Source: a virus
Taxonomy: Duplodnaviria > Heunggongvirae > Uroviricota > Caudoviricetes
Length of the DNA stretch: 40,276 nt
Virus record (IMG/VR): IMGVR_UViG_2713896903_000005
Reading direction: 5' to 3' (one strand)
Shown here: positions 19,486-40,276 of the stretch, piece by piece
How the letters are laid out: each line of letters begins with the position of its first letter
Position numbering within the stretch: position 1 is the first letter of the stretch
Translations under genes and position numbers: made by a program
The notes under the pieces: model-generated
What the model was told of the DNA's origin: nothing
The model's input: only the letters and a program-made list of their open reading frames with translations
Databases searched by the model: none

Positions 19486-21956
19486 TGGCTATCAGTTGGA
19501 TCCAGCCCAGCTTTGCCGGTGGTGAGATTGGACCGTCGTTGTACGGTCGTATCGACATGGCGAAGTACCAGGTGGCATTGCGCAAGTGCGATAACTTTAT
19601 CGTGCGGCAGTATGGCGGCGTTGAGAATCGACCTGGTACGCGTTTTGTCGGTGCCGCCAAATACCCAAATCGGAAATGCCGCCTGATCCCGTTCCAGTTC
19701 TCGACGGTTCAGACCTATGCTCTGGAGTTCGGGCACCAGTACATGCGCGTTATCAAAGATGGTGCATTGGTGCTGAACAGCAGCAATGTTATTTATGAAA
19801 TTGCCACGCCATATACTGAAGCCGATCTGTTCCGAATTAAATTCACGCAAAGCGCCGACGTGCTTACGCTGGTTCACCCTGCATACCCGCCGAAAGAGTT
19901 GCGCCGCTATGCGCATGACAACTGGCAACTGGTTGATGTGGTAACGAAGAACGGGCCATTTGAAGATATCAATATTGACGAGTCAGTGACGGTTTATGCC
20001 AGCGCCAGCACCGGGACAATTACGTTAACGGCAAGCGCCTCTATTTTTGGCGCGGAGCAGGTAGGCAAATTGTTCTATCTGGAACAGCCTGCAGTGGATT
20101 CGGTGCCAGTATGGGAAACCAGTAAGAGTACGTCGATTGGCGATATTCGCCGTGCAGACAGTAACTACTATCGCGCCGTTACAGCAGGCAAAACAGGTAC
20201 TTTGCGCCCTTCGCATACAGAAGGCACATCATGGGATGGCTGGGGCGGATCCGGTGATGATGATACTGGCATTGAGTGGGAATATCTGCACAGTGGTTTT
20301 GGCATTGCCCGTATCACTGCTGCAAATGGAACTACTGCAACTGCCGAGGTGATTTCCTATATCCCTTCGCAGGTAGTTGGCGAGGATAATGCCAGCTATA
20401 AATGGGCTAAATATGCCTGGAACAGTGTTAATGGTTATCCTGGCACTGTTGTTTATTATCAACAACGTCTTTACTTCGCCGCATCGACTGCGTTCCCTCA
20501 GACTATCTGGGCCAGCCGTACCGGGGATTATAAGGATTTTGGCAAAAGCAATCCTACGCAGGATGACGACAGAATTATCTACACCTATGCCGGGCGTCAG
20601 GTTAATGAGATCCGCCACCTGATTGATGTTGGTTCGCTGGTGGCGCTGACTTCCGGAGGTGAGTACGTCATCACCGGCGACCAGAACAAAGTGTTAACCC
20701 CATCATCATTTGCATTCAGCTCTCAGGGATCAAATGGCTCAAGCAACGTCCCACCAATTGCTGTGGCGAATATTGCTCTGTTCGTCCAGGAGAAAGGCAG
20801 CGTTGTCCGTGATCTGGCCTACTCATTCGATGTTGACGGCTATCAGGGGAACGACCTGACCATCCTTGCTAATCATCTTTTTCAGAAGCACAGCATTGTT
20901 GACTGGTGCTTCTCGATTGTCCCTTACTCCAGCGCCTTCTGTATTCGTGATGACGGTAAATTACTGGTGATGACCTATTTGCGTGATCAGCAGGTTTTTG
21001 CATGGGCACCACAGTCCAGTACCGGAAAATATGAAAGCACATGCAGTATCAGCGAAGGCAATGAAGATGCGGTGTATTTCGTCGTTAACCGAACCGTTAA
21101 CGGGCAAACAGTGAGATACATCGAGCGGCTGTCCAGCCGTTTATTTACCAGCGATGAAGATGCTTTCTTTGTTGATTCTGGCCTTAGCTATGATGGAAGA
21201 AATACGTCTGACAGAACGATGACCATCACCGGTGGTTCTGGTGAATGGGATTACCGTGCGGAATATACAATCAGTGTTTCTGGTGGTGCGTACTTCACCA
21301 GTAGTGATGTCGGCGCGCAACTACAGTTCCCTTATACCGGAACTGATCCTGATACTGGCGATGAAGTGTCAAAAGAATTACGTTGCGACATTATTTCTGT
21401 AACCAGCAATACCGCTGTAGTGGTTCGTGCTAACAGGAACGTCCCTCCATCCCTCAGGAATGTGGCCACCACGAACTGGCAGATGGCGCGCCGGACATTT
21501 GGAGGCCTGTCTCATCTTGAAGGCCAGACCGTAAACATTCTCTCTGATGCGAACGTGGAACCACAGAAAGTGGTTTCCGGAGGTGCCGTCACGCTGGAAT
21601 CTCCGGGGGCTGTAGTGCACATCGGCCTGCCAATAACTGCTGAATTCGAAACACTGGATATCAACATTAACGGACAGGAAACGCTGCTGGACAAAAAACA
21701 GGTGATCTCCTCCGTTACTCTGGTTGTGAATGCCAGTCGCGGCATCTTGGCGACTACGCCCGGCGGTAAATGGTACGAATATCCACAGCGTGAATTCGAG
21801 TTCTACGATGATCCTGTTGATGATGCTACCGGAAAAGTAGAAGTGAAACTGGACAGTAACTGGGGCAAAAACGGACGTGTAAAAATCCGTCAGCTTGATC
21901 CGTTGCCGCTGTCTGTTCTTGCCGTTATTCCTCGCCTTACTGTTGGGGGGTTCTGA
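19485..21956 (+). CDS. tail tubular protein B-like (nozzle), tentative
   Basis: 823 aa; TGATG overlap with the upstream gene; size and position match gp12-type tail tube proteins. Confidence 0.45.
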   Translation: MAISWIQPSFAGGEIGPSLYGRIDMAKYQVALRKCDNFIVRQYGGVENRPGTRFVGAAKYPNRKCRLIPFQFSTVQTYALEFGHQYMRVIKDGALVLNSSNVIYEIATPYTEADLFRIKFTQSADVLTLVHPAYPPKELRRYAHDNWQLVDVVTKNGPFEDINIDESVTVYASASTGTITLTASASIFGAEQVGKLFYLEQPAVDSVPVWETSKSTSIGDIRRADSNYYRAVTAGKTGTLRPSHTEGTSWDGWGGSGDDDTGIEWEYLHSGFGIARITAANGTTATAEVISYIPSQVVGEDNASYKWAKYAWNSVNGYPGTVVYYQQRLYFAASTAFPQTIWASRTGDYKDFGKSNPTQDDDRIIYTYAGRQVNEIRHLIDVGSLVALTSGGEYVITGDQNKVLTPSSFAFSSQGSNGSSNVPPIAVANIALFVQEKGSVVRDLAYSFDVDGYQGNDLTILANHLFQKHSIVDWCFSIVPYSSAFCIRDDGKLLVMTYLRDQQVFAWAPQSSTGKYESTCSISEGNEDAVYFVVNRTVNGQTVRYIERLSSRLFTSDEDAFFVDSGLSYDGRNTSDRTMTITGGSGEWDYRAEYTISVSGGAYFTSSDVGAQLQFPYTGTDPDTGDEVSKELRCDIISVTSNTAVVVRANRNVPPSLRNVATTNWQMARRTFGGLSHLEGQTVNILSDANVEPQKVVSGGAVTLESPGAVVHIGLPITAEFETLDININGQETLLDKKQVISSVTLVVNASRGILATTPGGKWYEYPQREFEFYDDPVDDATGKVEVKLDSNWGKNGRVKIRQLDPLPLSVLAVIPRLTVGGF

Positions 21957-25617: not shown

Positions 25618-27315
25618 ATGCCAATTTACACAGATGATCCGGGACAGGGAATTAACCAGCCAATTGGCAACGCGCCAGCAGGGCTTGGCGAATCGCTGCT
25701 TTCTTCCCTTAAGCAGGGATTTGAAGAGGGGCCGGTCATGTCCGGCTACCGCTTTGCGCAGGCCGACTCGCTGGCGAATGACCCAAACTCTACAGTTATC
25801 AGTAAGCAGGAAGCGGATGAGCTCCTGAAGCAGTACGGCGTAAAGAGCATAAACGTGCCAGATTCTGGCGTTACGCAGGCTTTTCTCGATCATGTTATTG
25901 CCGAACGCAAAGATTCTCTGGCACGCCAGCAGATCGCGATGTCGGCACCGAGCGGATGGGTAGCCACGCCGCTTAATTTCGCAGCCAGCCTAGCTGGTTC
26001 AATGGCAGATCCTGGTAACGTGGCGCTGGCGCTGGTTCCGTTCGCTGGAGAAGCAAAGGCGGCTTCTGTGCTTGGCCGATTTGGCGAGCGATTTGTTGCT
26101 GGTGCACGCATGGGGGCAGCGCAGGCGGTGGTGACCGTGCCGCTTACCGGGCTGGCAGCGGCGGCGGAAGGTGACGACTTCACCTATAGCAACGCGTTGG
26201 AAAGTACTTTCTTTAACACGATGGCTGGCGGTCTAATGCATGCCGGCGGCGGCCTTATCGCCGATATCGTGCGACCGCGTCGCGTTCCCGATGCTGCAAC
26301 GGGAGAGTCCCCGGCGTTTTCTGGCGATGCGCAGCCAACCCCGGTGATAACGCCTGACAACATTCCGGCGGGCGTGAATATCCCTGAGGTTGGCGCTAAC
26401 GCAGATCTGGCGGCTGCCATTTCCAGTGAAGCGGAGAGCTACGCATACAGCCGGGCTTATGACGACGTGGTTCCTGACTATATGGCGCGCCAGCAGGAGT
26501 TACAGAGCGGGCAGATCGGTAACGTTGCCGACCTGCGTGCCGAGCTTGCGGCTAATCAACGTCATGCTGACTCTCTTGATGCGACGCTGCAGCAGCGCAC
26601 CAAAAAGTATCAGGGGCAGCGGATGAAGTTTAAGGATGCGCGCTCTAGGGCACTGAAAGAGATTCAGGCCGAGAAAGACGCCATCGCTGCACGCAATCAG
26701 GAGATCAACACATCGCTGGAGCAGAACGCGACAGCAGAGCAGGCGCGCTGGCGCCAGTCTCAGATTTCCCGCGGCGAGATCCCCGACGACCTGAAAGTCA
26801 CCATTTCCGAGCGTGCGCAGCAGATCCTGGACGGCATGCAGATGTCGCCGGTCGCTGGCGCAGTTCGCACTGCCGCAAGCGCCATCAGGGATGCTGACTG
26901 GAGCGTGAACCAGCAGGCGTATCGCGCTGCGCTGGCACACATGATGGAAGGACGTAGCCCAGATGTTGAGCCCTTCTATGAACTGCACAAACCGGCACTG
27001 CGTGAACGCGCCATCCATCGCATACAGAACCCGGCACGGCAGGTTGATGAAACGGCTCGCCCAGCAAGCGAAACAGCCGATCGGGTTTATCAAGAAACGC
27101 AAAAGGCAGATCATGAAATTACCGCTGCCGCTGCAGACCTTGATAACGAGCTCAACCTGAGTAACGCCCTGCTTGACGATATCGCTGTCGATAACCCTGA
27201 TCTTGCGACCACGTTGCGCCAGAAACTCAATGATATTCGTGCAGACGCCAGCGACAATAGCATGAGCAACGCTTTCCGGGCATTTGCCGCCTGTATGATT
27301 AACCGGGGGATGTGA
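25618..27315 (+). CDS. internal virion / ejection protein
   Basis: 565 aa, Ala-rich, between the SLT protein and a large ejection protein. Confidence 0.45.
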   Translation: MPIYTDDPGQGINQPIGNAPAGLGESLLSSLKQGFEEGPVMSGYRFAQADSLANDPNSTVISKQEADELLKQYGVKSINVPDSGVTQAFLDHVIAERKDSLARQQIAMSAPSGWVATPLNFAASLAGSMADPGNVALALVPFAGEAKAASVLGRFGERFVAGARMGAAQAVVTVPLTGLAAAAEGDDFTYSNALESTFFNTMAGGLMHAGGGLIADIVRPRRVPDAATGESPAFSGDAQPTPVITPDNIPAGVNIPEVGANADLAAAISSEAESYAYSRAYDDVVPDYMARQQELQSGQIGNVADLRAELAANQRHADSLDATLQQRTKKYQGQRMKFKDARSRALKEIQAEKDAIAARNQEINTSLEQNATAEQARWRQSQISRGEIPDDLKVTISERAQQILDGMQMSPVAGAVRTAASAIRDADWSVNQQAYRAALAHMMEGRSPDVEPFYELHKPALRERAIHRIQNPARQVDETARPASETADRVYQETQKADHEITAAAADLDNELNLSNALLDDIAVDNPDLATTLRQKLNDIRADASDNSMSNAFRAFAACMINRGM

Positions 27316-31888: not shown

Positions 31889-32599
31889 TCAGAAGAACCC
31901 TGCCTTGTCGTTGATGTACTCCGCGTGCGTCTGGATATCACGCAGGCATTTGCTCACACCAACGATGTAGCAGAACATGGTGGTCAGCTCCGCCGCCGCG
32001 CCCGATACGTCGTGCCCGTCGTCCTGCAACTGGTTTAGCAGATTCATCAGCAGTGAGTTCTCCGTCAGGCCGAGAACACCAGACGGCGAGTGAATCAGGC
32101 TGCGGTAGCCGGGCTTCAGCGGGGCGCTGTAGGTTTTGTTCTCTATCTTCATTGCCTGCATCACTGCTGACGCCGTGGCGTTGGCTACCTGGTCGGCAAC
32201 CATCTTTATGCGTTCTTCCTGCGGGAGCGAGTTTTTAATGTAACTTCCGGTGCGGCGGATCTGAGGAAGTACCTCACCTGTAACCCATTTACGAAAGCGG
32301 TAGGGGATAGTGCCTGGTGTCACTGCGTCGCGGCAGCGGAGGATCAGTGTGTAGAGGCCTGACTCGGAGATGATGTTGATCTCTTTTACTCGGCGGTCAA
32401 AAATTACACGATGTTCATGCCCTATGTTGAACATAGACCTTTCATCATCATCCAGTTTTTCAAGTGCTTGGGTGACGTTTTGGATACGCAGCGCACTACA
32501 AACGTCTTGGGCTACAAACCATGGTTGGCCATCGATAATGATGGAACGGATAGGGTTAACAGATTCAAATTTGAAGATGGCAGTTTGAGCATTAGCCAT
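31889..32599 (-). CDS. Bro-N domain antirepressor
   Basis: N-terminal Bro-N-like segment (FKFESVNPIRSIIIDGQPWFVAQDVCSAL); C-terminal domain shared with the short 33748..34005 product; ATG at 32599 with SD GGAG (ORF-track start 32614). Confidence 0.65.
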   Translation of the reverse strand: MANAQTAIFKFESVNPIRSIIIDGQPWFVAQDVCSALRIQNVTQALEKLDDDERSMFNIGHEHRVIFDRRVKEINIISESGLYTLILRCRDAVTPGTIPYRFRKWVTGEVLPQIRRTGSYIKNSLPQEERIKMVADQVANATASAVMQAMKIENKTYSAPLKPGYRSLIHSPSGVLGLTENSLLMNLLNQLQDDGHDVSGAAAELTTMFCYIVGVSKCLRDIQTHAEYINDKAGFF

Positions 32600-32753
32600 G
32601 GTGGTTATCTCCACTTAGTGATTTTAATCACCACCGCAACGCCAATTACTGGTGGTGAACTGGACAAGGTTGGCGTACCGGCCTAAGTGGTACCGGCGTC
32701 CTTTCGGACCCCTGCCCAGCCCACCATAATTCGGATATAGCTGTGCTTAACGC

Positions 32754-32996: not shown

Positions 32997-33725
32997 ATGG
33001 AAGTTTTCTGGATAGTTGTTGGTGTGGTTGCGGTGATTATTTACGTTATCAACCAGAACAAGACTAAGATCTCTGATCGTACGGTCGTTAATCATAACAA
33101 AACGATAAAGACCGAAGATGGGGAGATAACGATTAATCGTACACAGGTGATAGAACACACCTCCACTCAGTTTCAAAAAACGGGAGATAATGCGCCTAAT
33201 ATTTCCGTACCTCCTGCTTATGATAGCGCGGTAATCCAGACATATTATAAACAGCAGGAGTTAGCAAAAGAGAGGCAACTGATTCAGCCAAAGCCATTTA
33301 CAGCAGAGCTTCCACCTGGAGTGTCAACGCGTCCGGCATATCATGGAAGATTCCCTGGTGATGACGTATCGTCTCAGTCACCTAAAAAAGCACCTCAGGC
33401 AGTATCAGAGCCAGCAAGAATACCTTCTGTATCGCCGTCAAAAGAAGAATCAGCTAACGAAGTTTCAAGTGCCCGCAAGCAGTGTTTGCGATGCAGAATA
33501 AACCTTCCATATGAAAAATTCAGGAAATCGTCAAAAAATCCAGATGGATTGACTAAGTGGTGTGCAAGGTGTCTAGATGGCCCAAAGAATACACGTCATA
33601 TGAAGTGGTGCCCAATTTGTAATGTCCGCAGAAAACGAACCAGCTTTTACCCTAATAATCAAAATGCGGACGGCTTAATGGCATGGTGCAAAACGTGCTG
33701 GGATGAGCACAAAGCGAAACGATAG
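32997..33725 (+). CDS. membrane-anchored protein with duplicated Cys-rich zinc-ribbon-like motifs
   Basis: 242 aa; N-terminal transmembrane helix (FWIVVGVVAVIIYVI), Pro/Ser-rich linker, two C-terminal repeats (CLRCR...DGLTKWCARC and CPIC...DGLMAWCKTC); AT-rich. Confidence 0.5.
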   Translation: MEVFWIVVGVVAVIIYVINQNKTKISDRTVVNHNKTIKTEDGEITINRTQVIEHTSTQFQKTGDNAPNISVPPAYDSAVIQTYYKQQELAKERQLIQPKPFTAELPPGVSTRPAYHGRFPGDDVSSQSPKKAPQAVSEPARIPSVSPSKEESANEVSSARKQCLRCRINLPYEKFRKSSKNPDGLTKWCARCLDGPKNTRHMKWCPICNVRRKRTSFYPNNQNADGLMAWCKTCWDEHKAKR

Positions 33726-33750
33726 GCCGCTCTTGCGGCCTTTAAATTTA
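33725..33750. terminator. terminator hairpin between convergent genes
   Basis: GGCCGC-TCTT-GCGGCC hairpin followed by TTTAAATTT on the plus strand and a T-rich run on the minus strand. Confidence 0.55.
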
Positions 33751-34005
33751 CCGGGTTTGTTTTCGTAATTGTTCGGCACAATAGTCGAGATGTGTTTGCA
33801 GATCCTGCATAGACATCTGCGAGCTGGTGACGTAGTTAATCAGTGCAGTCAGTTCGGCAAGTGGGCCATCGACATTAAATCCATCCTTATCGAGATCCCG
33901 GAGTAATTTCATCAAGTGCGATCCCTCCACCAGTGACCTGACGCCTCCCGGCGTGTGAATCCTTTCGGTAAATCCGTCTTCCAGTGGATAGTGATACTGC
34001 TGCAT
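33748..34005 (-). CDS. short antirepressor-like protein, probably SOS-regulated
   Basis: About 85 aa from the ATG at 34005 (SD GGAGAAG); matches the C-terminal domain of the Bro-N antirepressor (TPGGVRSLVEGSHLMKLLRDLDKDGFNVDGPLAELT vs SPSGVLGLTENSLLMNLLNQLQDDGHDVSGAAAELT); a LexA box lies 20-40 nt upstream. Confidence 0.5.
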   Translation of the reverse strand: MQQYHYPLEDGFTERIHTPGGVRSLVEGSHLMKLLRDLDKDGFNVDGPLAELTALINYVTSSQMSMQDLQTHLDYCAEQLRKQTR

Positions 34006-34024
34006 CTTATCTTCTCCATGCAAT

Positions 34025-34044
34025 AACTGTATATTTATACAGTA
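34025..34044. promoter_or_regulatory. LexA (SOS) box
   Basis: AACTGTATATTTATACAGTA matches the CTGT-N8-ACAG consensus with an AT-rich spacer; overlaps the promoter region of the short antirepressor gene. Confidence 0.7.
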
Positions 34045-34081
34045 GCAAATAATTTGTTTGCTATCCAGCACGTTTTGCAAA

Positions 34082-34096
34082 TTACCTGAAAGGTAA
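34082..34096. promoter_or_regulatory. operator-like palindrome TTACCTGAAAGGTAA
   Basis: Perfect site between the antirepressor gene and the tailspike gene. Confidence 0.5.
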
Positions 34097-34200
34097 TATC
34101 TATTCGTATTTATGGGTTATCTATCCATATATGATTTTTAAGGTAATAGAATAACCGGATATGCGGCGCAACGGGTGCTGCGACTATCTGGAGATTTAAC

Positions 34201-36111
34201 ATGACGGTCTCAACAGAAGTTGACCACAACGAATATACAGGTAACGGTGTTACAACTACGTTCCCTTATACCTTTAGGATTTTCCAGAAATCTGATCTGG
34301 TAGTACAAGTGGTTGACCTTGATGAAAATATCACAGTTCTTGCTCTTGATACTGATTACACAGTTACCGGGGCGGGAGGGTATAACGGTGGTAATGTAAT
34401 TCTGTCGAAGGCGTTGGCTAACGGTTATCAGATTTCTATGTATCGAGAGCTACCGGTTACGCAGGAAACCGATCTGCGCAATCAGGGTAAGTTCTTTGCA
34501 GAGGTGCATGAGGATGCGTTTGATAAGCTAACGATGCTGATCCAGCAGGTTCGCAGTTTGTTTACCTTGGCGCTTCGCAAGCCATCATTCGTGGCAAACT
34601 ATTATGATGCTTTGAATAATTACATCCGTAATCTTCGTGACCCGTCTCATCCTCAGGATGCAGCCACCAAGAATTATGTAGATACGCTGGCCAACGGAAA
34701 CCTAAACAGGGTGCTAAGAGTTCCAGAAGCATCCATACCTTCTCTTCCTGACGTTAATGGAAGGAGAAATAAAGCATTAAGTTTTGATGCATCTGGTAAC
34801 CCCTTGCTTTTAGATCCTGCAGGCAGTGGATTATGGGGATATGTTCTTATCGATTCGTTCCAGGCTGGAGCAAAAATATCAACCCGTTACGAAGCATTGC
34901 ATTGGCCTCTTCCTGATGGGGATGGTGAATATTATCGTTGGGATGGAGTATTGCCTAAGGAAGTCCCTGCAGGATCAACCCCTGACTCAACTGGTGGAAT
35001 AGGAATTGGGGCGTGGGTTGGTATAGGTGATGCATCATTAAGATCTGACTTGGCAGATAATCTAATCCCAGGAGCAAGCTTGGTATCAATACATTCTGGG
35101 ACGGTTAACGATGCTCTTGTGTATAACACTCCAGAAATGTTTGGCGCGCGACCAGACGGTTCTGTAGATGCATCTTCAGCTATTATTGCAGCAGGAAAGG
35201 ATGGCATTGGTAGTTATGGTGTAAATAAAGTTCTCCTCACAGGAGGTTCAGAAAGAACATTTGATATACAGTCTGATACAAATTCTCTTATCCTGTCATT
35301 CGGAAGACCATTTATTAATGGTATGGGAAATGGTGAGATAATCGATGTAAGAAGAACGATAAATCGCCCTATTAATAATAAAGGCCATTCTTCTTATCTT
35401 ATAGCTCACCGTGGGTATGTGAATGTACATGCTGAAAATACGGTCGCATCAATTAGTCTTGCGGCAAAATCTTGCCATGCTGTAGAGGTTGATGTTCAGA
35501 CCACATCTGACGGTCGATATGTTGTTTTTCATGACTTTACCACTGGTAATTTAATGAATAATGATCTAACTGTAGCAACATCAACCCTAGAACAACTTCA
35601 GGCATTAAAATATAAGAAAATGATTGGTACAAAATATGAGTACCATTGCAGGATTCCTACATTTGAGCAAGTTCTTGACGCTTGCCGTAGAACAGGCACT
35701 GAAATTTGGTGGGAGATTATGTCAACCAATACACCAGATCAAGTTGATGGTATGATACAGGCCGTCATTGATTATGGAATGGAACACAATGCTGTTTGCA
35801 CCACCGGAGTAGTATCTAACTTATATCTTCTCCGCAATAAATCTGAAGATATGAGAGTTCAATTAACTTCATCCAGCGCGACCCCCGATGAAACAGTGAA
35901 AGATATGGTTCGTCATCTTCGCCATATTGGTAATGGAACTCTTGCAATTGAGTATATTGACATGACAAACAGGCCATGGATACCTGAATATTGTTACCAA
36001 CGAGGCGTGGATATTGTTGTTTACACATTGTTTGCGTCTTATCAGGCGGTTCAAGCAAGAAACATCGGGATTCGGCAGATCATGTGTAACCAACAAGTAG
36101 GAGTTGAATAA
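34201..36111 (+). CDS. tailspike with C-terminal glycerophosphodiester phosphodiesterase (GDPD)-like domain
   Basis: N-terminus (NEYTGNGVTTTFPYTFRIF) matches the conserved particle-binding domain of podovirus tail fibres and tailspikes; C-terminal region carries GDPD-type motifs (IAHRG...ENT...VEVDV...DGRYVVFHD, later RIPTFEQVL...EIWWEI); SD GGAG. Confidence 0.7.
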   Translation: MTVSTEVDHNEYTGNGVTTTFPYTFRIFQKSDLVVQVVDLDENITVLALDTDYTVTGAGGYNGGNVILSKALANGYQISMYRELPVTQETDLRNQGKFFAEVHEDAFDKLTMLIQQVRSLFTLALRKPSFVANYYDALNNYIRNLRDPSHPQDAATKNYVDTLANGNLNRVLRVPEASIPSLPDVNGRRNKALSFDASGNPLLLDPAGSGLWGYVLIDSFQAGAKISTRYEALHWPLPDGDGEYYRWDGVLPKEVPAGSTPDSTGGIGIGAWVGIGDASLRSDLADNLIPGASLVSIHSGTVNDALVYNTPEMFGARPDGSVDASSAIIAAGKDGIGSYGVNKVLLTGGSERTFDIQSDTNSLILSFGRPFINGMGNGEIIDVRRTINRPINNKGHSSYLIAHRGYVNVHAENTVASISLAAKSCHAVEVDVQTTSDGRYVVFHDFTTGNLMNNDLTVATSTLEQLQALKYKKMIGTKYEYHCRIPTFEQVLDACRRTGTEIWWEIMSTNTPDQVDGMIQAVIDYGMEHNAVCTTGVVSNLYLLRNKSEDMRVQLTSSSATPDETVKDMVRHLRHIGNGTLAIEYIDMTNRPWIPEYCYQRGVDIVVYTLFASYQAVQARNIGIRQIMCNQQVGVE

Positions 36112-36923
36112 TGAATATTTCAAGAATGGGGTGGAAACATTACGTAACCTCTGGAACTGGTACAATAAATATCAGTGAAGATAGAGAAACTTTATACATG
36201 TCTGCAAGCGCTGGGCTAACAACTTTAGCAACAACGGAAATTGTTGCTGATGCTGAGAGTGAAATTGAGGTGACATTCGAGGCTAGATATATAGCCAATT
36301 CAATCACAGGTACTGATTATGCGATTTGTGGTATTTATTATTTTGGATTTCAGAACGAGAACGGTGGTGGTTTAGGTAACAGCTTCTCGGAGTTGCGCAT
36401 AACATCTAACGAGCTACAAACATATACGGCGAAATTGATTGTGCCAGCTACTAAAAACGAACTTAATTCTAATAGAATTGAGATCAGGTTTAATATTCCT
36501 AACAATGCTGACGGTTCTCTTTATGTTATTGGATATCCACGGGTGTCTATTAAGCGTTCTGCAATTGGGGTTTCGAGAATTATCGCAAAAGGTATCATAG
36601 ATCTCGTTCAGAATTCCGGCTCTGATGAAGTAGTTGTTAAGTTAATTAGTTGTAACAATGTTTCCAATGTTACGATGACATCAAGTAATCAAAATGTAGA
36701 AATAAATCTTGAAAGTTTTCCGAGAATTTACCCGGAAACGCCAATGTTTACCGCTACGATGATTCCGCAGGGAGATGAAGTTCCTGGAATGTATCAGCCC
36801 TTATATTTAACGTTTGATGCAAAAAGCAAAAAACTAACAATGGCATTTAAAAATGCATCTGGATCACGAATTGCAATATATCAAGCAAGACATCTGCGGT
36901 TTAACTTCACAATAACAATCTGA
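36111..36923 (+). CDS. hypothetical protein translationally coupled to the tailspike
   Basis: 270 aa; TAATG stop/start overlap with the tailspike gene and SD AGGAG; AT-rich, beta-rich. Confidence 0.45.
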   Translation: MNISRMGWKHYVTSGTGTINISEDRETLYMSASAGLTTLATTEIVADAESEIEVTFEARYIANSITGTDYAICGIYYFGFQNENGGGLGNSFSELRITSNELQTYTAKLIVPATKNELNSNRIEIRFNIPNNADGSLYVIGYPRVSIKRSAIGVSRIIAKGIIDLVQNSGSDEVVVKLISCNNVSNVTMTSSNQNVEINLESFPRIYPETPMFTATMIPQGDEVPGMYQPLYLTFDAKSKKLTMAFKNASGSRIAIYQARHLRFNFTITI

Positions 36924-37130
36924 GTTTACACAAACACAATCACAAACCCATTATGGCTCATATTGGAGAAAGATTAGCACAAAACACCCCATAACCTTAA
37001 CAAGGTATGATTCTGGGAAAATAACCCAAAAGGTAATTTCCACAATGGTGTTAGCTTGTTTTAATACATATACGGTTTGTTGTGTATAATTGACTCACCA
37101 ACTAAGGGGGTTATTCATGTACAGTAAACG

Positions 37131-37535
37131 ATGGTCACTATGGCTCATGTGCTAACAACAGAGTCGGTTAATCAGGGGCTTAGTATGACTGCTCTGGCTT
37201 CGGTTTTTGTTGGTATACCACCAGAAGTGGCGCTTGGTGCTTTATCAGGTGCGGTAATATTTATTACCTCTGCTGTTGAATATCCAATACGCCGCCGGGT
37301 TATCCTGTCGATGCTCAGCTTCCTCTGCGGGCTTCTCTTCTACAAACCAACAGCATCAATCCTTATCGGCGTAGCCAGCCTGATCCCAACTATCACGCAG
37401 GATTCATTCGAGAAAGGGATCGTTTTCTCTGTCGGCGCATTTGTTTCGGCAATTGTTGCAGTACGCATTGGTATCTGGCTCTATCATCGTTCCGACAATC
37501 CACGCGATTTAATCCCGGGGGAGAAAAGACGATGA
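37131..37535 (+). CDS. holin-like membrane protein
   Basis: 134 aa with several hydrophobic helices, first gene of the lysis cassette; start could be 37140; a 12-codon ORF (37117..37155) with strong SD overlaps the start. Confidence 0.45.
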   Translation: MVTMAHVLTTESVNQGLSMTALASVFVGIPPEVALGALSGAVIFITSAVEYPIRRRVILSMLSFLCGLLFYKPTASILIGVASLIPTITQDSFEKGIVFSVGAFVSAIVAVRIGIWLYHRSDNPRDLIPGEKRR

Positions 37536-37840
37536 CAACTCATGAGCTGCTTTTACTCATTGTCAATGCGGTTATCTGTTCTGTGATAGCAATCCGCGTC
37601 GGAACCTTCCAGCGTAATGGATCGCAACACCGTCGGTGGGGAGGTTGGATAGCCTACTTCCTTATCGTAGCGTCAGCCAGCATCCCAGTCCGGGCTGCAT
37701 ATGCAATCTGGTTACACACGACAATGGCTGTGGATTTATCTGAGGTAATTATTAACGCTGTCATGCTTGCTGCGGTTCTTAAAACTCGCGGTAACGTCGT
37801 TCAAATTTTCAAAATAACGAGGTCTAAACATGGAGATTAA
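37532..37840 (+). CDS. holin or antiholin
   Basis: 102 aa with about three transmembrane helices; immediately upstream of, and overlapping, the endolysin gene. Confidence 0.5.
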
Positions 37841-38459
37841 ACAATTCCAGCGAGCTGCTGGTATTAGCGAGGCGCTGGCCGAACGCTGGTTCCCGCATAT
37901 AACTTCAGCGATGAAAGAGTTTGGAATCAGCAAACCCGAAGATCAGGCAATGTTTATTGCTCAGGTCGGGCATGAGTCTGGGAGCTTCACTCGGTTGCAG
38001 GAGAATTTCAACTACAGTGTCTGTGGACTGGCTAACTTCGTTCGGGCTGGGCGCCTCACTCAGGGGCAGGCTAATGCACTGGGTCGCCGTGCTGGTGAAC
38101 CGCCATTACCACTCGAGCGACAGCGCGCGATCGCAAATCTGGTGTACAGCAAACGCATGGGTAACAATGCTCCTGGCGATGGCTGGAATTACCGTGGGCG
38201 CGGACTTATCCAGATTACCGGTTTGAATAATTATCGTGACTGTGGAAACGGTCTGAAGGTTGACCTGCTGGAGAGTCCTGAACTGCTGGCGCAGGACGAA
38301 TATGCGGCTCGTAGCGCGGCGTGGTTCTTCTCCAGCAAAGGCTGCATGAAGTATACCGGCGATATTGCACATGTAACTCTGATTATCAATGGTGGCAGGA
38401 ATGGCATCGACGATCGGCTCGCGCGGTACGTCACTGCCAGTAAGGTGATGGCTGTATGA
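37830..38459 (+). CDS. endolysin, glycoside hydrolase family 19 (chitinase-like lysozyme)
   Basis: GH19-type motifs [12 protein letters not shown] and [15 protein letters not shown]; located between the holin and spanin genes. Confidence 0.8.
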
Positions 38460-38944
38460 TCTGGGCATTCGTAAAAGCATACCGGAAACAGTTGCTTATC
38501 GTGGCGATGCTTGCTGTTCTGGTCATGTTTGGAGTTGTTACATGGAATTTACATGGCAGTCGTCAGTACGACGCCGGGTATGCGCAGGCGAAGGAAGATC
38601 AGAAACAGGCTGATGATAAGTTCAGGTCACAGCGTGAGCAGGAGAAAACACAAATTGAACGTGAAGCACAATCCCGTATTGATGCGGCGCGTGCTGATGC
38701 TGAGTATGCTAATACCGCTGCTGACAGCATGCGCGCCGAGATTGACAAAACCAAGCGACTCGCCGAACACTATACCGGATCTTTCCCCCCTGGCACGCCA
38801 GCCAGCAAGGTCATCGGTGTGCTCGCCGACATGCTTGAAGAAAGCAACCGAGTTTACAATGCAACAGCAGTTGAGGCTGAAAAGTATCGTATCGCAGGGG
38901 AATTCTGCGAGCAGCAATACGACTCATTGAAGAAGCAAAAATAG
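38456..38944 (+). CDS. i-spanin (Rz-like)
   Basis: 162 aa; N-terminal transmembrane helix, charged coiled-coil periplasmic domain; overlaps the endolysin stop. Confidence 0.65.
38682..38930 (+). CDS. o-spanin (Rz1-like) embedded in the Rz frame
   Basis: +1-frame ORF inside Rz starting [17 protein letters not shown], with lipobox LLTAC, followed by a Pro-rich mature region. Confidence 0.55.
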   Translation: MRRVLMLSMLIPLLTACAPRLTKPSDSPNTIPDLSPLARQPARSSVCSPTCLKKATEFTMQQQLRLKSIVSQGNSASSNTTH

Positions 38945-39204: not shown

Positions 39205-39744
39205 TTAGTTAAACCAGCTATCAGATTTATTTTCTTCTGCTTTGCCGGCACTTTTCATCAAATCGCGTCCGCCTTCCGACATATTGCGGTTCGCATCGGC
39301 TTCTGACTGAACAACATCAGTATGCGCAGCCTGACGCTTAAGCTCCTGATCGATGTACTCGTTTTCCCTTTTTACTCGCGCTTCTTCTTTCGCCAGTGCC
39401 AGTTTTTGCTTCTGGATTTCTAAACTGCGCAACTCATCTTCATAACCTTGATCACGCTGTTTATCTTTGGTGGCTTCAGCATCCAACTTGTCCTGACGAG
39501 CTTGTCGTGCTGCCGCAGCAGCTGCGGCTTTCTTATTCGCTGCTGCCTGCGCATTTGCGCGTCGTTGCCTTTCTTGTTGGACTTCTCTGTTGCGCTCCGC
39601 TACCCATTCATCATGCTCTTTTTTCTCTTCATTTTTGCCCTGCTGTTCAGCTTCTGCAACTGCGGAGAGCTGATCCTGTAATGAAGAGGCAAAGGTTGTG
39701 TTGCTTAGCGTAGCCAGAATTGCGCACAGCAGTATTTTCTTCAT
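39205..39744 (-). CDS. secreted coiled-coil protein (periplasmic), function unknown
   Basis: ATG at 39744 gives signal peptide MKKILLCAILATLSNTTFA; the rest is highly charged, Ala/Gln/Glu/Lys-rich; SD AGGGGGGGG. Confidence 0.45.
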   Translation of the reverse strand: MKKILLCAILATLSNTTFASSLQDQLSAVAEAEQQGKNEEKKEHDEWVAERNREVQQERQRRANAQAAANKKAAAAAAARQARQDKLDAEATKDKQRDQGYEDELRSLEIQKQKLALAKEEARVKRENEYIDQELKRQAAHTDVVQSEADANRNMSEGGRDLMKSAGKAEENKSDSWFN

Positions 39745-39760
39745 GACCCCCCCCTGATGA

Positions 39761-40276
39761 TTATTTTTTCTCAGGGCATGTCGCGTTTGGCTGAATGCGG
39801 GTTTCATTGTAAGCAGTGGAGATAACAACTGCTAAACCAGTAGTGAATTGGCACTGTTTGCCAACCTGGGTTGAGGTATAAACTTTTTTCCCGTCTTTAT
39901 AGGTTAAAGACACACCTTCAACTAAAGTTTTATCACTTACCATGGAGCCTGCTGCCGCACCTGCCGCACCACCTCCGACTGCACCAGCCGTGGTATTCAG
40001 GCTGCTGCCGGAACCTACGTTATGGCCCACAACACCACCTGCCACTGCACCAAGAACAGCGCCAAAAGTCTGTGCTGCTTGTTTATTTTTCGTATTATCT
40101 ACCGCTACTTTTGCTGGTAGCACGGAAATAATATTAACTGTTTTGGTCTCTTGTTTTGAGTTCAGCTGATCTGTTTGATAAACATCAGCAGCATGATCAT
40201 CTGCATTGGATTGACAGCCAGCGAGAGTGAAAGAAGCCAAAATAGCTACAGGTAAGAAACATTTTTTAAAGTTCAT
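39761..40276 (-). CDS. SlyB-like glycine-zipper outer-membrane lipoprotein
   Basis: Lipoprotein signal with lipobox LAGC; Gly-zipper segment (GAVLGAVAGGVVGHNVGSG...AGAVGGGAAGAAAG) and overall pattern like the SlyB/Pcp family; may be host flank or phage cargo. Confidence 0.55.
   Translation of the reverse strand: MNFKKCFLPVAILASFTLAGCQSNADDHAADVYQTDQLNSKQETKTVNIISVLPAKVAVDNTKNKQAAQTFGAVLGAVAGGVVGHNVGSGSSLNTTAGAVGGGAAGAAAGSMVSDKTLVEGVSLTYKDGKKVYTSTQVGKQCQFTTGLAVVISTAYNETRIQPNATCPEKK

What the first reader, a model, noticed from the sequence alone, without database searches (positions are those of the whole stretch)
34201..36111. Tailspike carries a glycerophosphodiesterase-type catalytic domain
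The N-terminal about 120 residues match the conserved particle-binding domain of podovirus tailspikes. The C-terminal about 240 residues carry the hallmark GDPD motifs (HRG, ENT, E.D, HD, then PT.EQVL and an EI... strand), as in UgpQ/GlpQ-type enzymes. Tailspike depolymerases are usually glycosidases, lyases or esterases. A phosphodiesterase domain suggests the receptor is a surface polymer with phosphodiester-linked glycerol or ribitol phosphate, such as some capsules or O-antigens. The gene and its coupled downstream ORF are AT-rich relative to the virion genes, consistent with horizontal exchange of the receptor-binding module.
Basis: partly seen in the sequence, partly recalled or inferred. 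Interest (0 to 1): 0.7.

Follow-up and report, generated by a model that had tools for sequence, protein, structure and literature searches.

The report
Phage tailspike ending in a phosphodiesterase domain
A prophage of the gut bacterium Escherichia albertii has a tailspike whose usual sugar-cutting beta-helix is replaced by a glycerophosphodiesterase (GDPD) domain, which is inherited as a mobile two-gene cassette with a conserved unknown partner gene; such enzymes are known on phages of Gram-positive bacteria but, as far as I could find, have not been described on tailspikes of Gram-negative phages, and what it cuts on this host is still unknown.

Summary
ORF 34201-36111 (636 aa) is the tailspike of a phiV10/epsilon15-like prophage of Escherichia albertii. 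Residues 1-~210 are the conserved virion adaptor and 219-277 are a Tail_spike_N domain. Residues 398-636 are a bona fide GDPD TIM barrel (Pfam 80 bits against a cutoff of 23.6; model pLDDT >90; TM 0.86 to TtGDPD). The HR..EN..ExD..HD motif and all five residues published as required are intact. The otherwise near-invariant phosphate-binding Lys is Met (M507).

New findings:
- Window 35087-36919 (tailspike codon ~296 to the end of the 270-aa downstream ORF) is a cassette, 99.3-99.4% identical in P22-like E. albertii prophages.
- The GDPD gene plus a translationally coupled ~250-270-aa partner ORF is a conserved pair in every partner-bearing locus examined: podoviruses, T1-like siphoviruses (phages DTL and Snitter) and Gram-positive siphophage baseplates.

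The receptor inference is not established. The only typed lysogen (NIAH_Bird 25, EAOg29) is serologically O8, a polymannan without phosphate, although it carries an extra wzx/wzy gene set.

Verdict: a new variant of a known kind. Domain identity is near certain; catalytic activity and substrate are open.

The parts
34201..36111 (+). Tailspike gene, 636 aa including the stop codon
   Evidence: ORF list. The exact protein is found in 3 independent assemblies, including E. albertii GCA_001514745.1. PHROG 1640 'tail protein' E=3e-151.
34201..34830 (+). N-terminal virion-binding adaptor (about residues 1-210), epsilon15/phiV10 type
   Evidence: 74-84% identity over residues 1-206/218 to tailspikes of phiV10, TL-2011b, SPN1S, PAS61 and Tyrion. 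88-92% nucleotide identity over the first ~490 nt in 153 E. coli genomes. PDB Dpo31 residues 1-166, E=3e-26.
34855..35031 (+). Tail_spike_N (TSP1/Gp66-type) domain, residues 219-277
   Evidence: Pfam PF18668, 63.1 bits against a cutoff of 25. PDB tailspikes 4oj5, 9vvr and 5w6h align here.
35087..36919 (+). Horizontally exchanged cassette: tailspike codon ~296 to the end of the partner ORF
   Evidence: 1,833 bp, ungapped, 99.3-99.4% identical to P22-like E. albertii prophages L001/L002, with no other similarity in window 33000-38000. P0001 is Head_binding + the same C-terminus.
35035..35391 (+). Neck region, residues 279-397, containing an 'FGARPDG...' motif; fold not resolved
   Evidence: No Pfam hit. 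Model pLDDT <45. Two GDPD relatives (P0066, P0169) carry PF12708 (Pectate_lyase_3) plus GDPD, as precomputed; P0066 and two other relatives (P0005, P0045) align to this stretch.
35392..36108 (+). GDPD TIM-barrel domain, residues 398-636 (Pfam match 403-627)
   Evidence: Putative catalytic residues are H403 (35407-35409) and H444; metal ligands are E429, D431 and E505.
35719..35721 (+). Codon M507, the position of the near-invariant phosphate-binding Lys of the E-x-K motif
   Evidence: Lys in 84/84 other sequences of A2 and in 266/288 aligned GDPD domains. Met occurs only in the E. albertii copies. The homologous Lys-93 of SMaseD/PLD coordinates the phosphate.
36099..36113 (+). Coupling junction: AGGAG, 7-nt spacer, then ATG overlapping the TAA stop (TAATG)
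   Evidence: Sequence read. The same -1/-4 overlap or a gap of at most 16 nt is seen in all 23 partner-bearing loci tabulated.
36111..36923 (+). Partner ORF, 270 aa, a member of a conserved family found only directly downstream of tail-type GDPD genes
   Evidence: Homology to L008 (E=1e-9) and L010 (E=2e-6). HMM hits in 12 of 16 IMG/VR GDPD loci. Gram-positive examples L109 and L110. Weak CBM_4_9 and 1gui signals.

Best explanation
This is the receptor-recognising tailspike of an epsilon15/phiV10-like temperate podovirus of Escherichia albertii. The usual beta-helix depolymerase has been replaced by a metal-dependent glycerophosphodiester-phosphodiesterase (GDPD) TIM barrel.

Shown:
- Residues 1-~210 are the virion adaptor and 219-277 are a Tail_spike_N domain. 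Residues 279-397 are a short neck and 398-636 are a GDPD fold.
- The two catalytic His (H403, H444), the phosphate-binding Arg (R404) and the three metal ligands (E429, D431, E505) are intact.
- The C-terminal part from about codon 296, together with the next gene, is a mobile cassette shared with P22-like prophages. That gene pair is conserved in many unrelated phages.

Inferred:
- The spike binds a phosphodiester-containing surface glycoconjugate of the host.
- It cleaves it by the GDPD mechanism. The metal and one His activate a hydroxyl next to the phosphodiester, a cyclic phosphate forms as the leaving alcohol is protonated by the other His, and water then opens the cyclic phosphate.
- This trims or depolymerises the receptor layer so that the virion can reach the outer membrane.
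- The translationally coupled 270-aa partner, probably a CBM-like beta-sandwich, is made in step with the spike. It acts either as a carbohydrate-binding subunit of the spike or as its dedicated assembly factor.

My estimates: GDPD identity about 0.97; virion receptor-binding module about 0.85; catalytically active about 0.6; substrate is a glycerol/ribitol-phosphate O-antigen or capsule about 0.35.
For: - Domain identity: Pfam GDPD 80 bits; confident model plus Foldseek TM 0.86 to 2pz0, 9f5m (phage K gp155 C-terminal domain) and 5t9b (BsGlpQ).
- Active site: the HR..EN..ExD..HD motif as defined in PMC4926365 and the five residues stated as required in PMC10194240 are all present.
- Tailspike role: synteny and N-terminal identity with epsilon15-like tailspikes.
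- Selection for function: the intact ORF occurs in at least 7 assemblies on two different virion adaptors.
- Wider family: the nearest relatives are also C-terminal GDPDs on phage tail-fibre N-termini.
- Partner: the partner gene is directly downstream in 12 of 14 assessable IMG/VR loci, and also in L008-L010, Snitter, DTL, L109 and L110, always coupled.
- Mechanism: taken from PMC10404611.
- Precedent: teichoic-acid-directed GDPDs on Gram-positive phage tails.
Against: - The near-invariant E-x-K lysine is Met507 and G456 is Leu. In the related SMaseD/PLD enzymes this Lys coordinates the phosphate.
- The only O-typed lysogen is O8-like, and the O8 polymannan has no phosphate.
- No substrate, no trimer model and no evidence that the partner is in the virion.
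- The neck (279-397) could not be modelled.
- Phage DTL carries a homologous module yet was propagated on E. coli K-12, which to my knowledge lacks O-antigen (background knowledge). The module is therefore not necessarily an O-antigen depolymerase.
Confidence: 0.55

Rival explanations
1. Binding-only pseudo-enzyme. The GDPD barrel is kept as a lectin-like receptor-binding head that recognises a phosphorylated glycan but no longer hydrolyses it, or turns it over very slowly.
For: Lys507 is replaced by Met at a position that is Lys in 266/288 aligned GDPD domains, and G456 by Leu. The equivalent Lys coordinates the phosphate in SMaseD/PLD. A few other tail-fibre GDPDs have also lost it (DTL Ala, L018 Ser, P0113 Ser), which suggests the residue is dispensable for the tail-fibre role.
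Against: Both His, the Arg and all three metal ligands are retained. The five residues stated in the literature as required do not include this Lys. A pure binding module would not be expected to preserve the whole catalytic set across 30%-identical relatives.
Confidence: 0.2
2. The substrate is not a serotype-specific polymer but a conserved envelope phosphodiester. Candidates are the phosphoglyceride anchor of enterobacterial common antigen or of capsules, phosphoethanolamine or phosphoglycerol decorations of LPS, or lysophospholipids. The enzyme would then help envelope penetration rather than O-antigen or capsule depolymerisation.
For: The typed lysogen has a phosphate-free O8-type O-antigen. 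A homologous module sits on phage DTL, grown on E. coli K-12. Some GDPDs have lysophospholipase D activity and low head-group specificity. The module is spread over hosts as different as Escherichia, Erwinia, Moraxella and Oceanobacillus.
Against: The position at the tip of a tailspike or lateral fibre, and exchange as a cassette between phages of one species, are the hallmarks of serotype-specific receptor modules. The module is very rare: 3 close hits in 5.8 billion proteins and none in 5,426 complete E. coli genomes. That argues against a universal target. EAOg29 carries a second, uncharacterised wzx/wzy gene set.
Confidence: 0.2
3. Non-functional relic: a decaying prophage gene in which a truncated tailspike became fused by accident to a bacterial GDPD gene.
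For: No beta-helix is present. The composition is foreign (GC3 about 29%).
Against: The ORF is intact and the protein identical in at least 3 epsilon15-like and 4 P22-like prophage assemblies. The same architecture (tail adaptor + C-terminal GDPD + coupled partner) recurs in dozens of unrelated phage contigs and in the cultured phages DTL and Snitter. The closest cellular GDPDs are only about 30% identical.
Confidence: 0.03

Closest known systems
Baseplate glycerophosphodiesterase of Lactobacillus delbrueckii phage Ld17 and related Lactobacillus phage GDPDs
   Same: A GDPD domain carried on a virion tail or baseplate protein. tblastn finds these as relatives at about 25% identity and they have the same fold (phiLdb and Bromius). 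The cited paper's title reports a baseplate glycerophosphodiesterase, and PMC10194240 describes such phage GDPDs as degrading teichoic-acid phosphodiester bonds (Cornelissen et al. 2016).
   Different: The host is Gram-positive and the substrate is (lipo)teichoic acid. The virus is a siphovirus and the enzyme sits in the baseplate, not on a podovirus tailspike. The Lys of E-x-K is conserved in the family consensus.
[quoted passage not shown]
   Same: A trimeric tail spike ending in GDPD barrels. The structural match is TM 0.86 to 9f5m. That GDPD is combined with a putative saccharide-binding knob, as the CBM-like partner may be here.
   Different: It is a myovirus central spike, and the proposed target is wall teichoic acid. 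The lectin-like domain is on the same polypeptide. Activity is proposed there, not shown.
Cellular GDPDs and teichoicases: TtGDPD (2pz0), B. subtilis and S. aureus GlpQ (5t9b, 2oog), UgpQ (2otd)
   Same: The same fold and the same catalytic and metal residues. The mechanism is taken from this family.
   Different: These are soluble, stand-alone nutrient-scavenging enzymes. The window protein is 16-23% identical to them, lacks the conserved Lys (M507), and has a diverged loop after the HD motif (LMNNDL instead of LTNGTG).
Tailspikes of epsilon15-like podoviruses (phiV10, TL-2011b, SPN1S, epsilon15)
   Same: The same genome position and 74-84% identical N-terminal ~210 residues.
   Different: Several of those proteins are annotated as beta-helix or tailspike proteins (e.g. 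'right-handed parallel beta-helix repeat-containing protein'). Here, no beta-helix was detected and only ~120 unassigned residues separate the adaptor domains from the GDPD barrel.
Lateral tail fibres of the T1-like phages Escherichia phage DTL (YP_009795742) and Erwinia phage Snitter (QXG07653)
   Same: A C-terminal tail-type GDPD (30-31% identity; DTL model rmsd 2.5 A) followed by the partner ORF. The hosts are Gram-negative. DTL also lacks the Lys (Ala).
   Different: These are siphovirus lateral fibres with different N-termini. They are annotated only as 'tail fiber protein' or 'putative tail protein', with no function assigned.
Phage phi29 appendage gp12
   Same: A podovirus tail appendage that degrades a glycerol-phosphate polymer (reference title cited).
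   Different: To my knowledge it uses a beta-helix fold, not a GDPD barrel (background knowledge, not tested here). The host is Gram-positive.

Membership tests
GDPD family (Pfam PF03009) | Profile match above the curated gathering score over most of the domain | tested here: met
   80.2 bits against 23.6; residues 403-627 cover profile positions 1-237 of 244.
GDPD family (Pfam PF03009) | GDPD-type TIM-barrel fold | tested here: met
   AF2 pLDDT >90 over residues 398-636. Foldseek top 40+ PDB hits are all GDPDs; 2pz0 TM 0.86, rmsd 2.4 A.
GDPD family (Pfam PF03009) | Motif HR(X)nEN(X)nEXD(X)nHD, with two catalytic His and three metal ligands (E, D, E) | tested here: met
   H403 R404; E412 N413; E429 D431; H444 D445; E505.
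GDPD family (Pfam PF03009) | Conserved Lys two residues after the third metal ligand (E-x-K), a phosphate ligand | tested here: not met
   M507. Lys is found in 84/84 other rows of A2 and in 266/288 aligned domains. The role is inferred from Lys-93 of SMaseD/PLD.
GDPD family (Pfam PF03009) | Metal-dependent hydrolysis of a phosphodiester next to a free hydroxyl | not testable with these tools
   Needs an enzyme assay.
Epsilon15/phiV10-type podovirus tailspike | Homologous N-terminal adaptor at the syntenic position after the virion genes | tested here: met
   (e.g. phiV10 20996-21610, TL-2011b 35716-36345).
Epsilon15/phiV10-type podovirus tailspike | Right-handed beta-helix receptor-binding or catalytic body | tested here: not met
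   No beta-helix or pectate-lyase Pfam hit. Only ~120 residues lie between Tail_spike_N and the GDPD barrel. The distal domain is an alpha/beta barrel.
Epsilon15/phiV10-type podovirus tailspike | Homotrimer incorporated in the virion | not tested
   No multimer prediction was available, and there are no proteomics data.
Tail-associated GDPDs of Gram-positive phages (Ld17, phage K/812, enterococcal phages) | GDPD domain on a tail or baseplate structural protein | tested here: met
Tail-associated GDPDs of Gram-positive phages (Ld17, phage K/812, enterococcal phages) | Host wall contains teichoic acid as the substrate | tested here: not met
   The host is Escherichia albertii, which is Gram-negative. 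The flanking host genes are yfgI/yfgH.
GDPD + partner two-gene tail module (defined here) | Tail-type GDPD at the C-terminus, immediately followed by a coupled 244-316-aa (mostly ~250-270-aa) homologous ORF | tested here: met
   Window junction TAATG. Partner homology. Junctions. Reverse test 2/2.
CBM4/9-type carbohydrate-binding module (for the partner ORF) | Profile match above threshold, or a confirmed beta-jelly-roll fold | tested here: inconclusive
   3 of 15 family members hit PF02018 with best E=0.001, below the cutoff. The window protein itself has no hit. The profile matches 1gui CBM4 at E=0.021.

The most novel reading that the evidence does not exclude
The GDPD head and its coupled CBM-like partner form a two-subunit, receptor-destroying tail module. 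The module is ancient and portable, being shared between Gram-positive siphophage baseplates, where it attacks teichoic acid, and Gram-negative podovirus tailspikes and T1-like lateral fibres. In Escherichia it would target a phosphodiester-containing surface structure that is not the classical O-antigen backbone. Candidates are the product of the extra wzx/wzy locus of EAOg29, a terminal or side-chain phosphodiester, or a phosphoglyceride-anchored glycan. This would reveal a class of phage receptor chemistry in enterobacteria that has not been described.
Probability: 0.3. Interest if true: 0.8.

Novelty: new variant of a known kind. Interest (0 to 1): 0.6.

Why it matters
To my knowledge, the characterised tailspike and tail-fibre depolymerases of phages infecting Gram-negative bacteria are glycosidases, lyases or esterases. 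A phosphodiesterase head would add a fourth chemistry. It would point to phosphodiester-linked surface structures as phage receptors in Escherichia and its relatives.

Because the module is a self-contained cassette that works on at least two different virion adaptors (P22-type and epsilon15-type), it is also a natural building block for engineering host range. If active, it could serve as a reagent for cutting phosphodiester-linked glycans.

The strictly conserved, translationally coupled partner gene is an uncharacterised protein family with a clear and testable association. The loss of an otherwise near-invariant active-site Lys, in this protein and in phage DTL, gives a direct handle on whether such heads are enzymes or lectins.

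Tried and rejected
- Single-sequence AlphaFold2 of residues 300-636 failed (pLDDT 33). It was replaced by an alignment-based model.
- The search for related loci with the partner alignment A3 in viral contigs found nothing, because the window ORF used for confirmation is too divergent.
- Alignment A1 was too diverse to seed a scan. A narrower alignment, A4, worked.
- The single genome-contig scan was swamped by cellular cyanobacterial GDPDs at about 32% identity. Only Moraxella caviae and one Bacillota MAG looked tail-type.
- The word-indexed homology search is insensitive here: 3 hits for the module and 4 for the partner. The exhaustive HMMER search was needed.
- I tried to find glycerol- or ribitol-phosphate genes in the EAOg29 O-antigen cluster from the paper and its supplement. 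No gene-level annotation is held, and the other lysogens could not be O-typed.
- Two papers were not held: Clarke 2011 (PMC3308851) and Cornelissen 2016 (PMC4974393).
- The idea that the 242-aa ORF at 32997-33725 is shared with the P22-like prophages, which have an ORF of the same length, was tested and rejected (E=9).
- A methyl-phosphate cap as substrate was considered. It fits O9/O9a but not the O8 type of this lysogen.
Full report
**What is there.** The window is a phiV10/epsilon15-like temperate podovirus genome integrated next to yfgI/yfgH.
- Window 10000-34200 is about 97-98% identical to Escherichia phages HEMP4, TL-2011b and phiV10 over the aligned ~55-61% of that stretch.
- The right flank encodes yfgI/yfgH at only about 75% identity to E. 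coli.
- The exact tailspike protein is encoded in Escherichia albertii GCA_001514745.1 (contig BBVN01000003.1), in one metagenome contig and in one read-archive assembly, always in the same context.
- ORF 34201-36111 (+) encodes 636 aa and starts 8 nt after a GGAG.

**Check of the observation.**
- Pfam gives GDPD (PF03009) at E=3.3e-22 and 80.2 bits against a cutoff of 23.6. Residues 403-627 cover positions 1-237 of the 244-position profile. Tail_spike_N (PF18668) lies at residues 219-277.
- PHROGs place residues 1-471 in tail-protein family 1640.
- Sequence search of the PDB finds tailspike N-terminal domains for residues 1-166 and 209-330, and a dozen GDPD enzymes for residues ~397-535.
- A first single-sequence structure prediction failed.
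- A second, built on 87 sequences, gave pLDDT >90 for residues ~398-636 with the alternating strand-helix pattern of a TIM barrel.
- Foldseek against the PDB returns only GDPDs at the top: T. tengcongensis GDPD 2pz0 (E=5e-20, TM 0.86, rmsd 2.4 A), B. subtilis GlpQ, the C-terminal domain of phage K gp155 (TM 0.86) and the phage 812 central-spike petal domain.
Residues 1-206/218 are 74-84% identical to the tailspikes of phiV10, TL-2011b, SPN1S, PAS61 and Tyrion at the syntenic position.
- 153 E. coli genomes share only the first ~490 nt, and none of 5,426 has the C-terminal part.

**Active site.**
- I aligned the protein with its 18 nearest relatives and then with 84 further GDPDs. It keeps A402-H403-R404-G405, E412-N413-T414, E429, D431, H444-D445 and E505.
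- This is the HR..EN..ExD..HD motif plus the five residues described as required: two His and three metal ligands.
- Two departures stand out.
  - The Lys two residues after the last metal ligand (E-x-K) is Met507. It is Lys in 84/84 other rows of the alignment and in 266/288 aligned domains, and Met occurs only in the E. albertii copies.
  - G456, which is Gly in 82/84 rows, is Leu, within a diverged loop (LMNNDL for LTNGTG).
- In the related SMaseD/PLD toxins the equivalent Lys-93 coordinates the substrate phosphate together with the metal.
- Three other tail-fibre GDPDs have also lost the Lys: phage DTL (Ala), L018 (Ser) and P0113 (Ser).
- I read this as an intact catalytic core with one altered phosphate ligand, which makes activity likely but unproven.

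**A mobile cassette.**
- The C-terminal module is extremely rare. A search of 5.8 billion proteins with residues 300-636 returned three hits, all from E. albertii.
- One of them, P0001 (470 aa), joins a P22-type Head_binding domain to the identical C-terminus. It sits at the gene-9 position of P22-like prophages in at least four assemblies.
- At the DNA level, window 35087-36919 is 99.3-99.4% identical, without gaps, to those prophages. Nothing else in window 33000-38000 matches.
- The exchanged unit therefore runs from tailspike codon ~296 to the last codons of the downstream ORF.
- Its GC content is 37-40% (GC3 about 29%), against 52% (GC3 52-61%) in the virion genes.

**A conserved partner gene.**
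- The 270-aa ORF 36111-36923 overlaps the tailspike stop (TAATG) and has AGGAG 7 nt upstream. It has no Pfam or PHROG match.
- The exhaustive HMMER search found 477 proteins at E<=1e-10. The best, at about 30-32% identity, almost all carry the GDPD within 0-5 residues of their C-terminus.
- Of the ten best that I scanned, several have recognisable phage tail-fibre N-termini, and all ten match the GDPD part of PHROG 16641 'tail fiber protein'.
- In two such contigs (L008, P22-like tail genes; L010, SU10-like) the next gene, again overlapping by one base, is homologous to the window ORF. The window scores E=1e-9 against L008 and E=2e-6 against L010, and the two score E=3e-43 against each other.
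- Of 16 IMG/VR loci with a tail-type GDPD, 12 have the partner directly downstream, and two of the other four are cut at the contig end.
- The cultured T1-like phages Erwinia phage Snitter and Escherichia phage DTL have the pair at their lateral tail-fibre locus. In DTL the partner is not annotated.
- In all 23 partner-bearing loci tabulated, the partner start overlaps the GDPD stop by 1 or 4 nt, or follows it within 16 nt.
- In the reverse direction, two partner homologues found by protein search lie directly after a GDPD gene, between Dit and Tal, in Gram-positive siphophage modules. One is in Oceanobacillus neutriphilus.
- I never saw the partner without the GDPD.
- Its function is unknown. 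Three of 15 members give sub-threshold hits to CBM_4_9 (best E=0.001), and the family profile hits the CBM4 of laminarinase 16A at E=0.02. These are weak but concordant hints of a carbohydrate-binding beta-sandwich.

**Receptor.**
- BBVN01000001-113 is strain NIAH_Bird 25, O-genotype EAOg29. It agglutinates with O8 antiserum, its wzm/wzt are 98% identical to those of E. coli O8, and it uniquely also carries an unrelated wzx/wzy set.
- The O8 polymannan ends in a methyl group and has no phosphate. The related O9/O9a ends in a methyl phosphate.
It is not excluded either: a second polymer could come from the wzx/wzy set, or the O-antigen may have been replaced after lysogeny.
- E. albertii does have O-types related to E. 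coli O130 (EAOg27), whose O-polysaccharide contains glycerol phosphate (title cited).
- Phage DTL, which has a homologous module, was grown on E. coli K-12. To my knowledge K-12 lacks O-antigen. This keeps a conserved-envelope target in play.

**Mechanism proposed.** By analogy with characterised GDPDs, the metal held by E429/D431/E505 and one His activate a hydroxyl next to the phosphodiester. The other His protonates the leaving alcohol, and a cyclic phosphate is formed and then hydrolysed. On a tailspike this would cut or trim a phosphodiester-containing surface glycan and let the particle approach the outer membrane. The coupled partner would supply carbohydrate binding or assembly help. 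The domain identities, cassette structure and gene-pair conservation are shown; binding, catalysis, substrate and the partner's role are inferred.

**Comparison with what is known.**
- GDPD domains on tail proteins are documented for Gram-positive phages. Examples are the Ld17 baseplate glycerophosphodiesterase (cited), the phage 812/K central spike, and 22 enterococcal phage and prophage proteins.
- Three full-text searches found no description of a GDPD tailspike or tail fibre in a phage of a Gram-negative host. The one Gram-negative phage mentioned (YerA41) has a non-structural GDPD.
- In BFVD, the only named Gram-negative-phage match is the unannotated DTL tail fibre.
- The finding is therefore a new variant of a known kind: a known enzyme-on-tail principle on a new virion scaffold and host type, with a previously unnoticed obligate partner gene.

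**Verdict.** Interest is 0.6.

Noticed in passing
L027:6702-7548 (Escherichia phage DTL, NC_047893.1 about 37734-38580): The RefSeq record leaves an ~850-nt gap with no annotated gene right after the GDPD tail-fibre gene. The gap holds a 265-aa ORF homologous to the partner family (HMM E=1.8e-8 in the identical IMG/VR copy L024).
   Followed up: partly
L024 (phage DTL), L018, P0113: Besides the E. albertii protein (Met), three other tail-type GDPDs lack the near-invariant E-x-K lysine (Ala, Ser, Ser) while keeping both His and the metal ligands. These look like independent losses in tail-fibre enzymes.
   Followed up: partly
window 33748-34005 (-) and 31889-32614 (-): A small ORF just upstream of the tailspike, on the opposite strand, is 42% identical over 74 residues (E=2e-15) to the C-terminal part of the Bro-N-type antirepressor-like protein 1.2 kb away. 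It appears to be a duplicated or split C-terminal domain in the immunity/antirepressor region.
   Followed up: partly
window 32997-33725 (+): A 242-aa ORF with a Cys-rich C-terminal half (repeated C-x2-C pairs) and no family assigned by the precomputed Pfam annotation. It is conserved at this place in all three epsilon15-like loci (L005-L007). It is not related to the equally long ORF in the P22-like prophages (E=9).
   Followed up: partly
window 39205-40276 (-): The host flank (yfgI/yfgH homologues) is only about 75% identical in DNA to every E. coli genome. This is low for E. albertii and marks this junction as a divergent chromosomal spot next to the prophage end.
   Followed up: no
L109:4865-6750 and L110:5024-6741: In two Gram-positive siphophage-type prophages, the GDPD + partner pair sits between the Dit (Sipho_tail) and Tal (Prophage_tail) genes. 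The same two-gene module is therefore used in baseplates of phages of teichoic-acid-bearing hosts.
   Followed up: partly
L008:8464-13729: In this P22-like-tail metagenomic podovirus, the GDPD protein (340 aa) is not fused to the head-binding domain. It follows a separate 396-aa Head_binding protein and a 117-aa PKD-like protein, and is followed by the partner and a 635-aa ORF. This suggests a branched, multi-protein spike.
   Followed up: no
window 26001-27000: There is a local GC peak (60.4%) inside the virion gene block, well above the ~51% of its neighbours.
   Followed up: no
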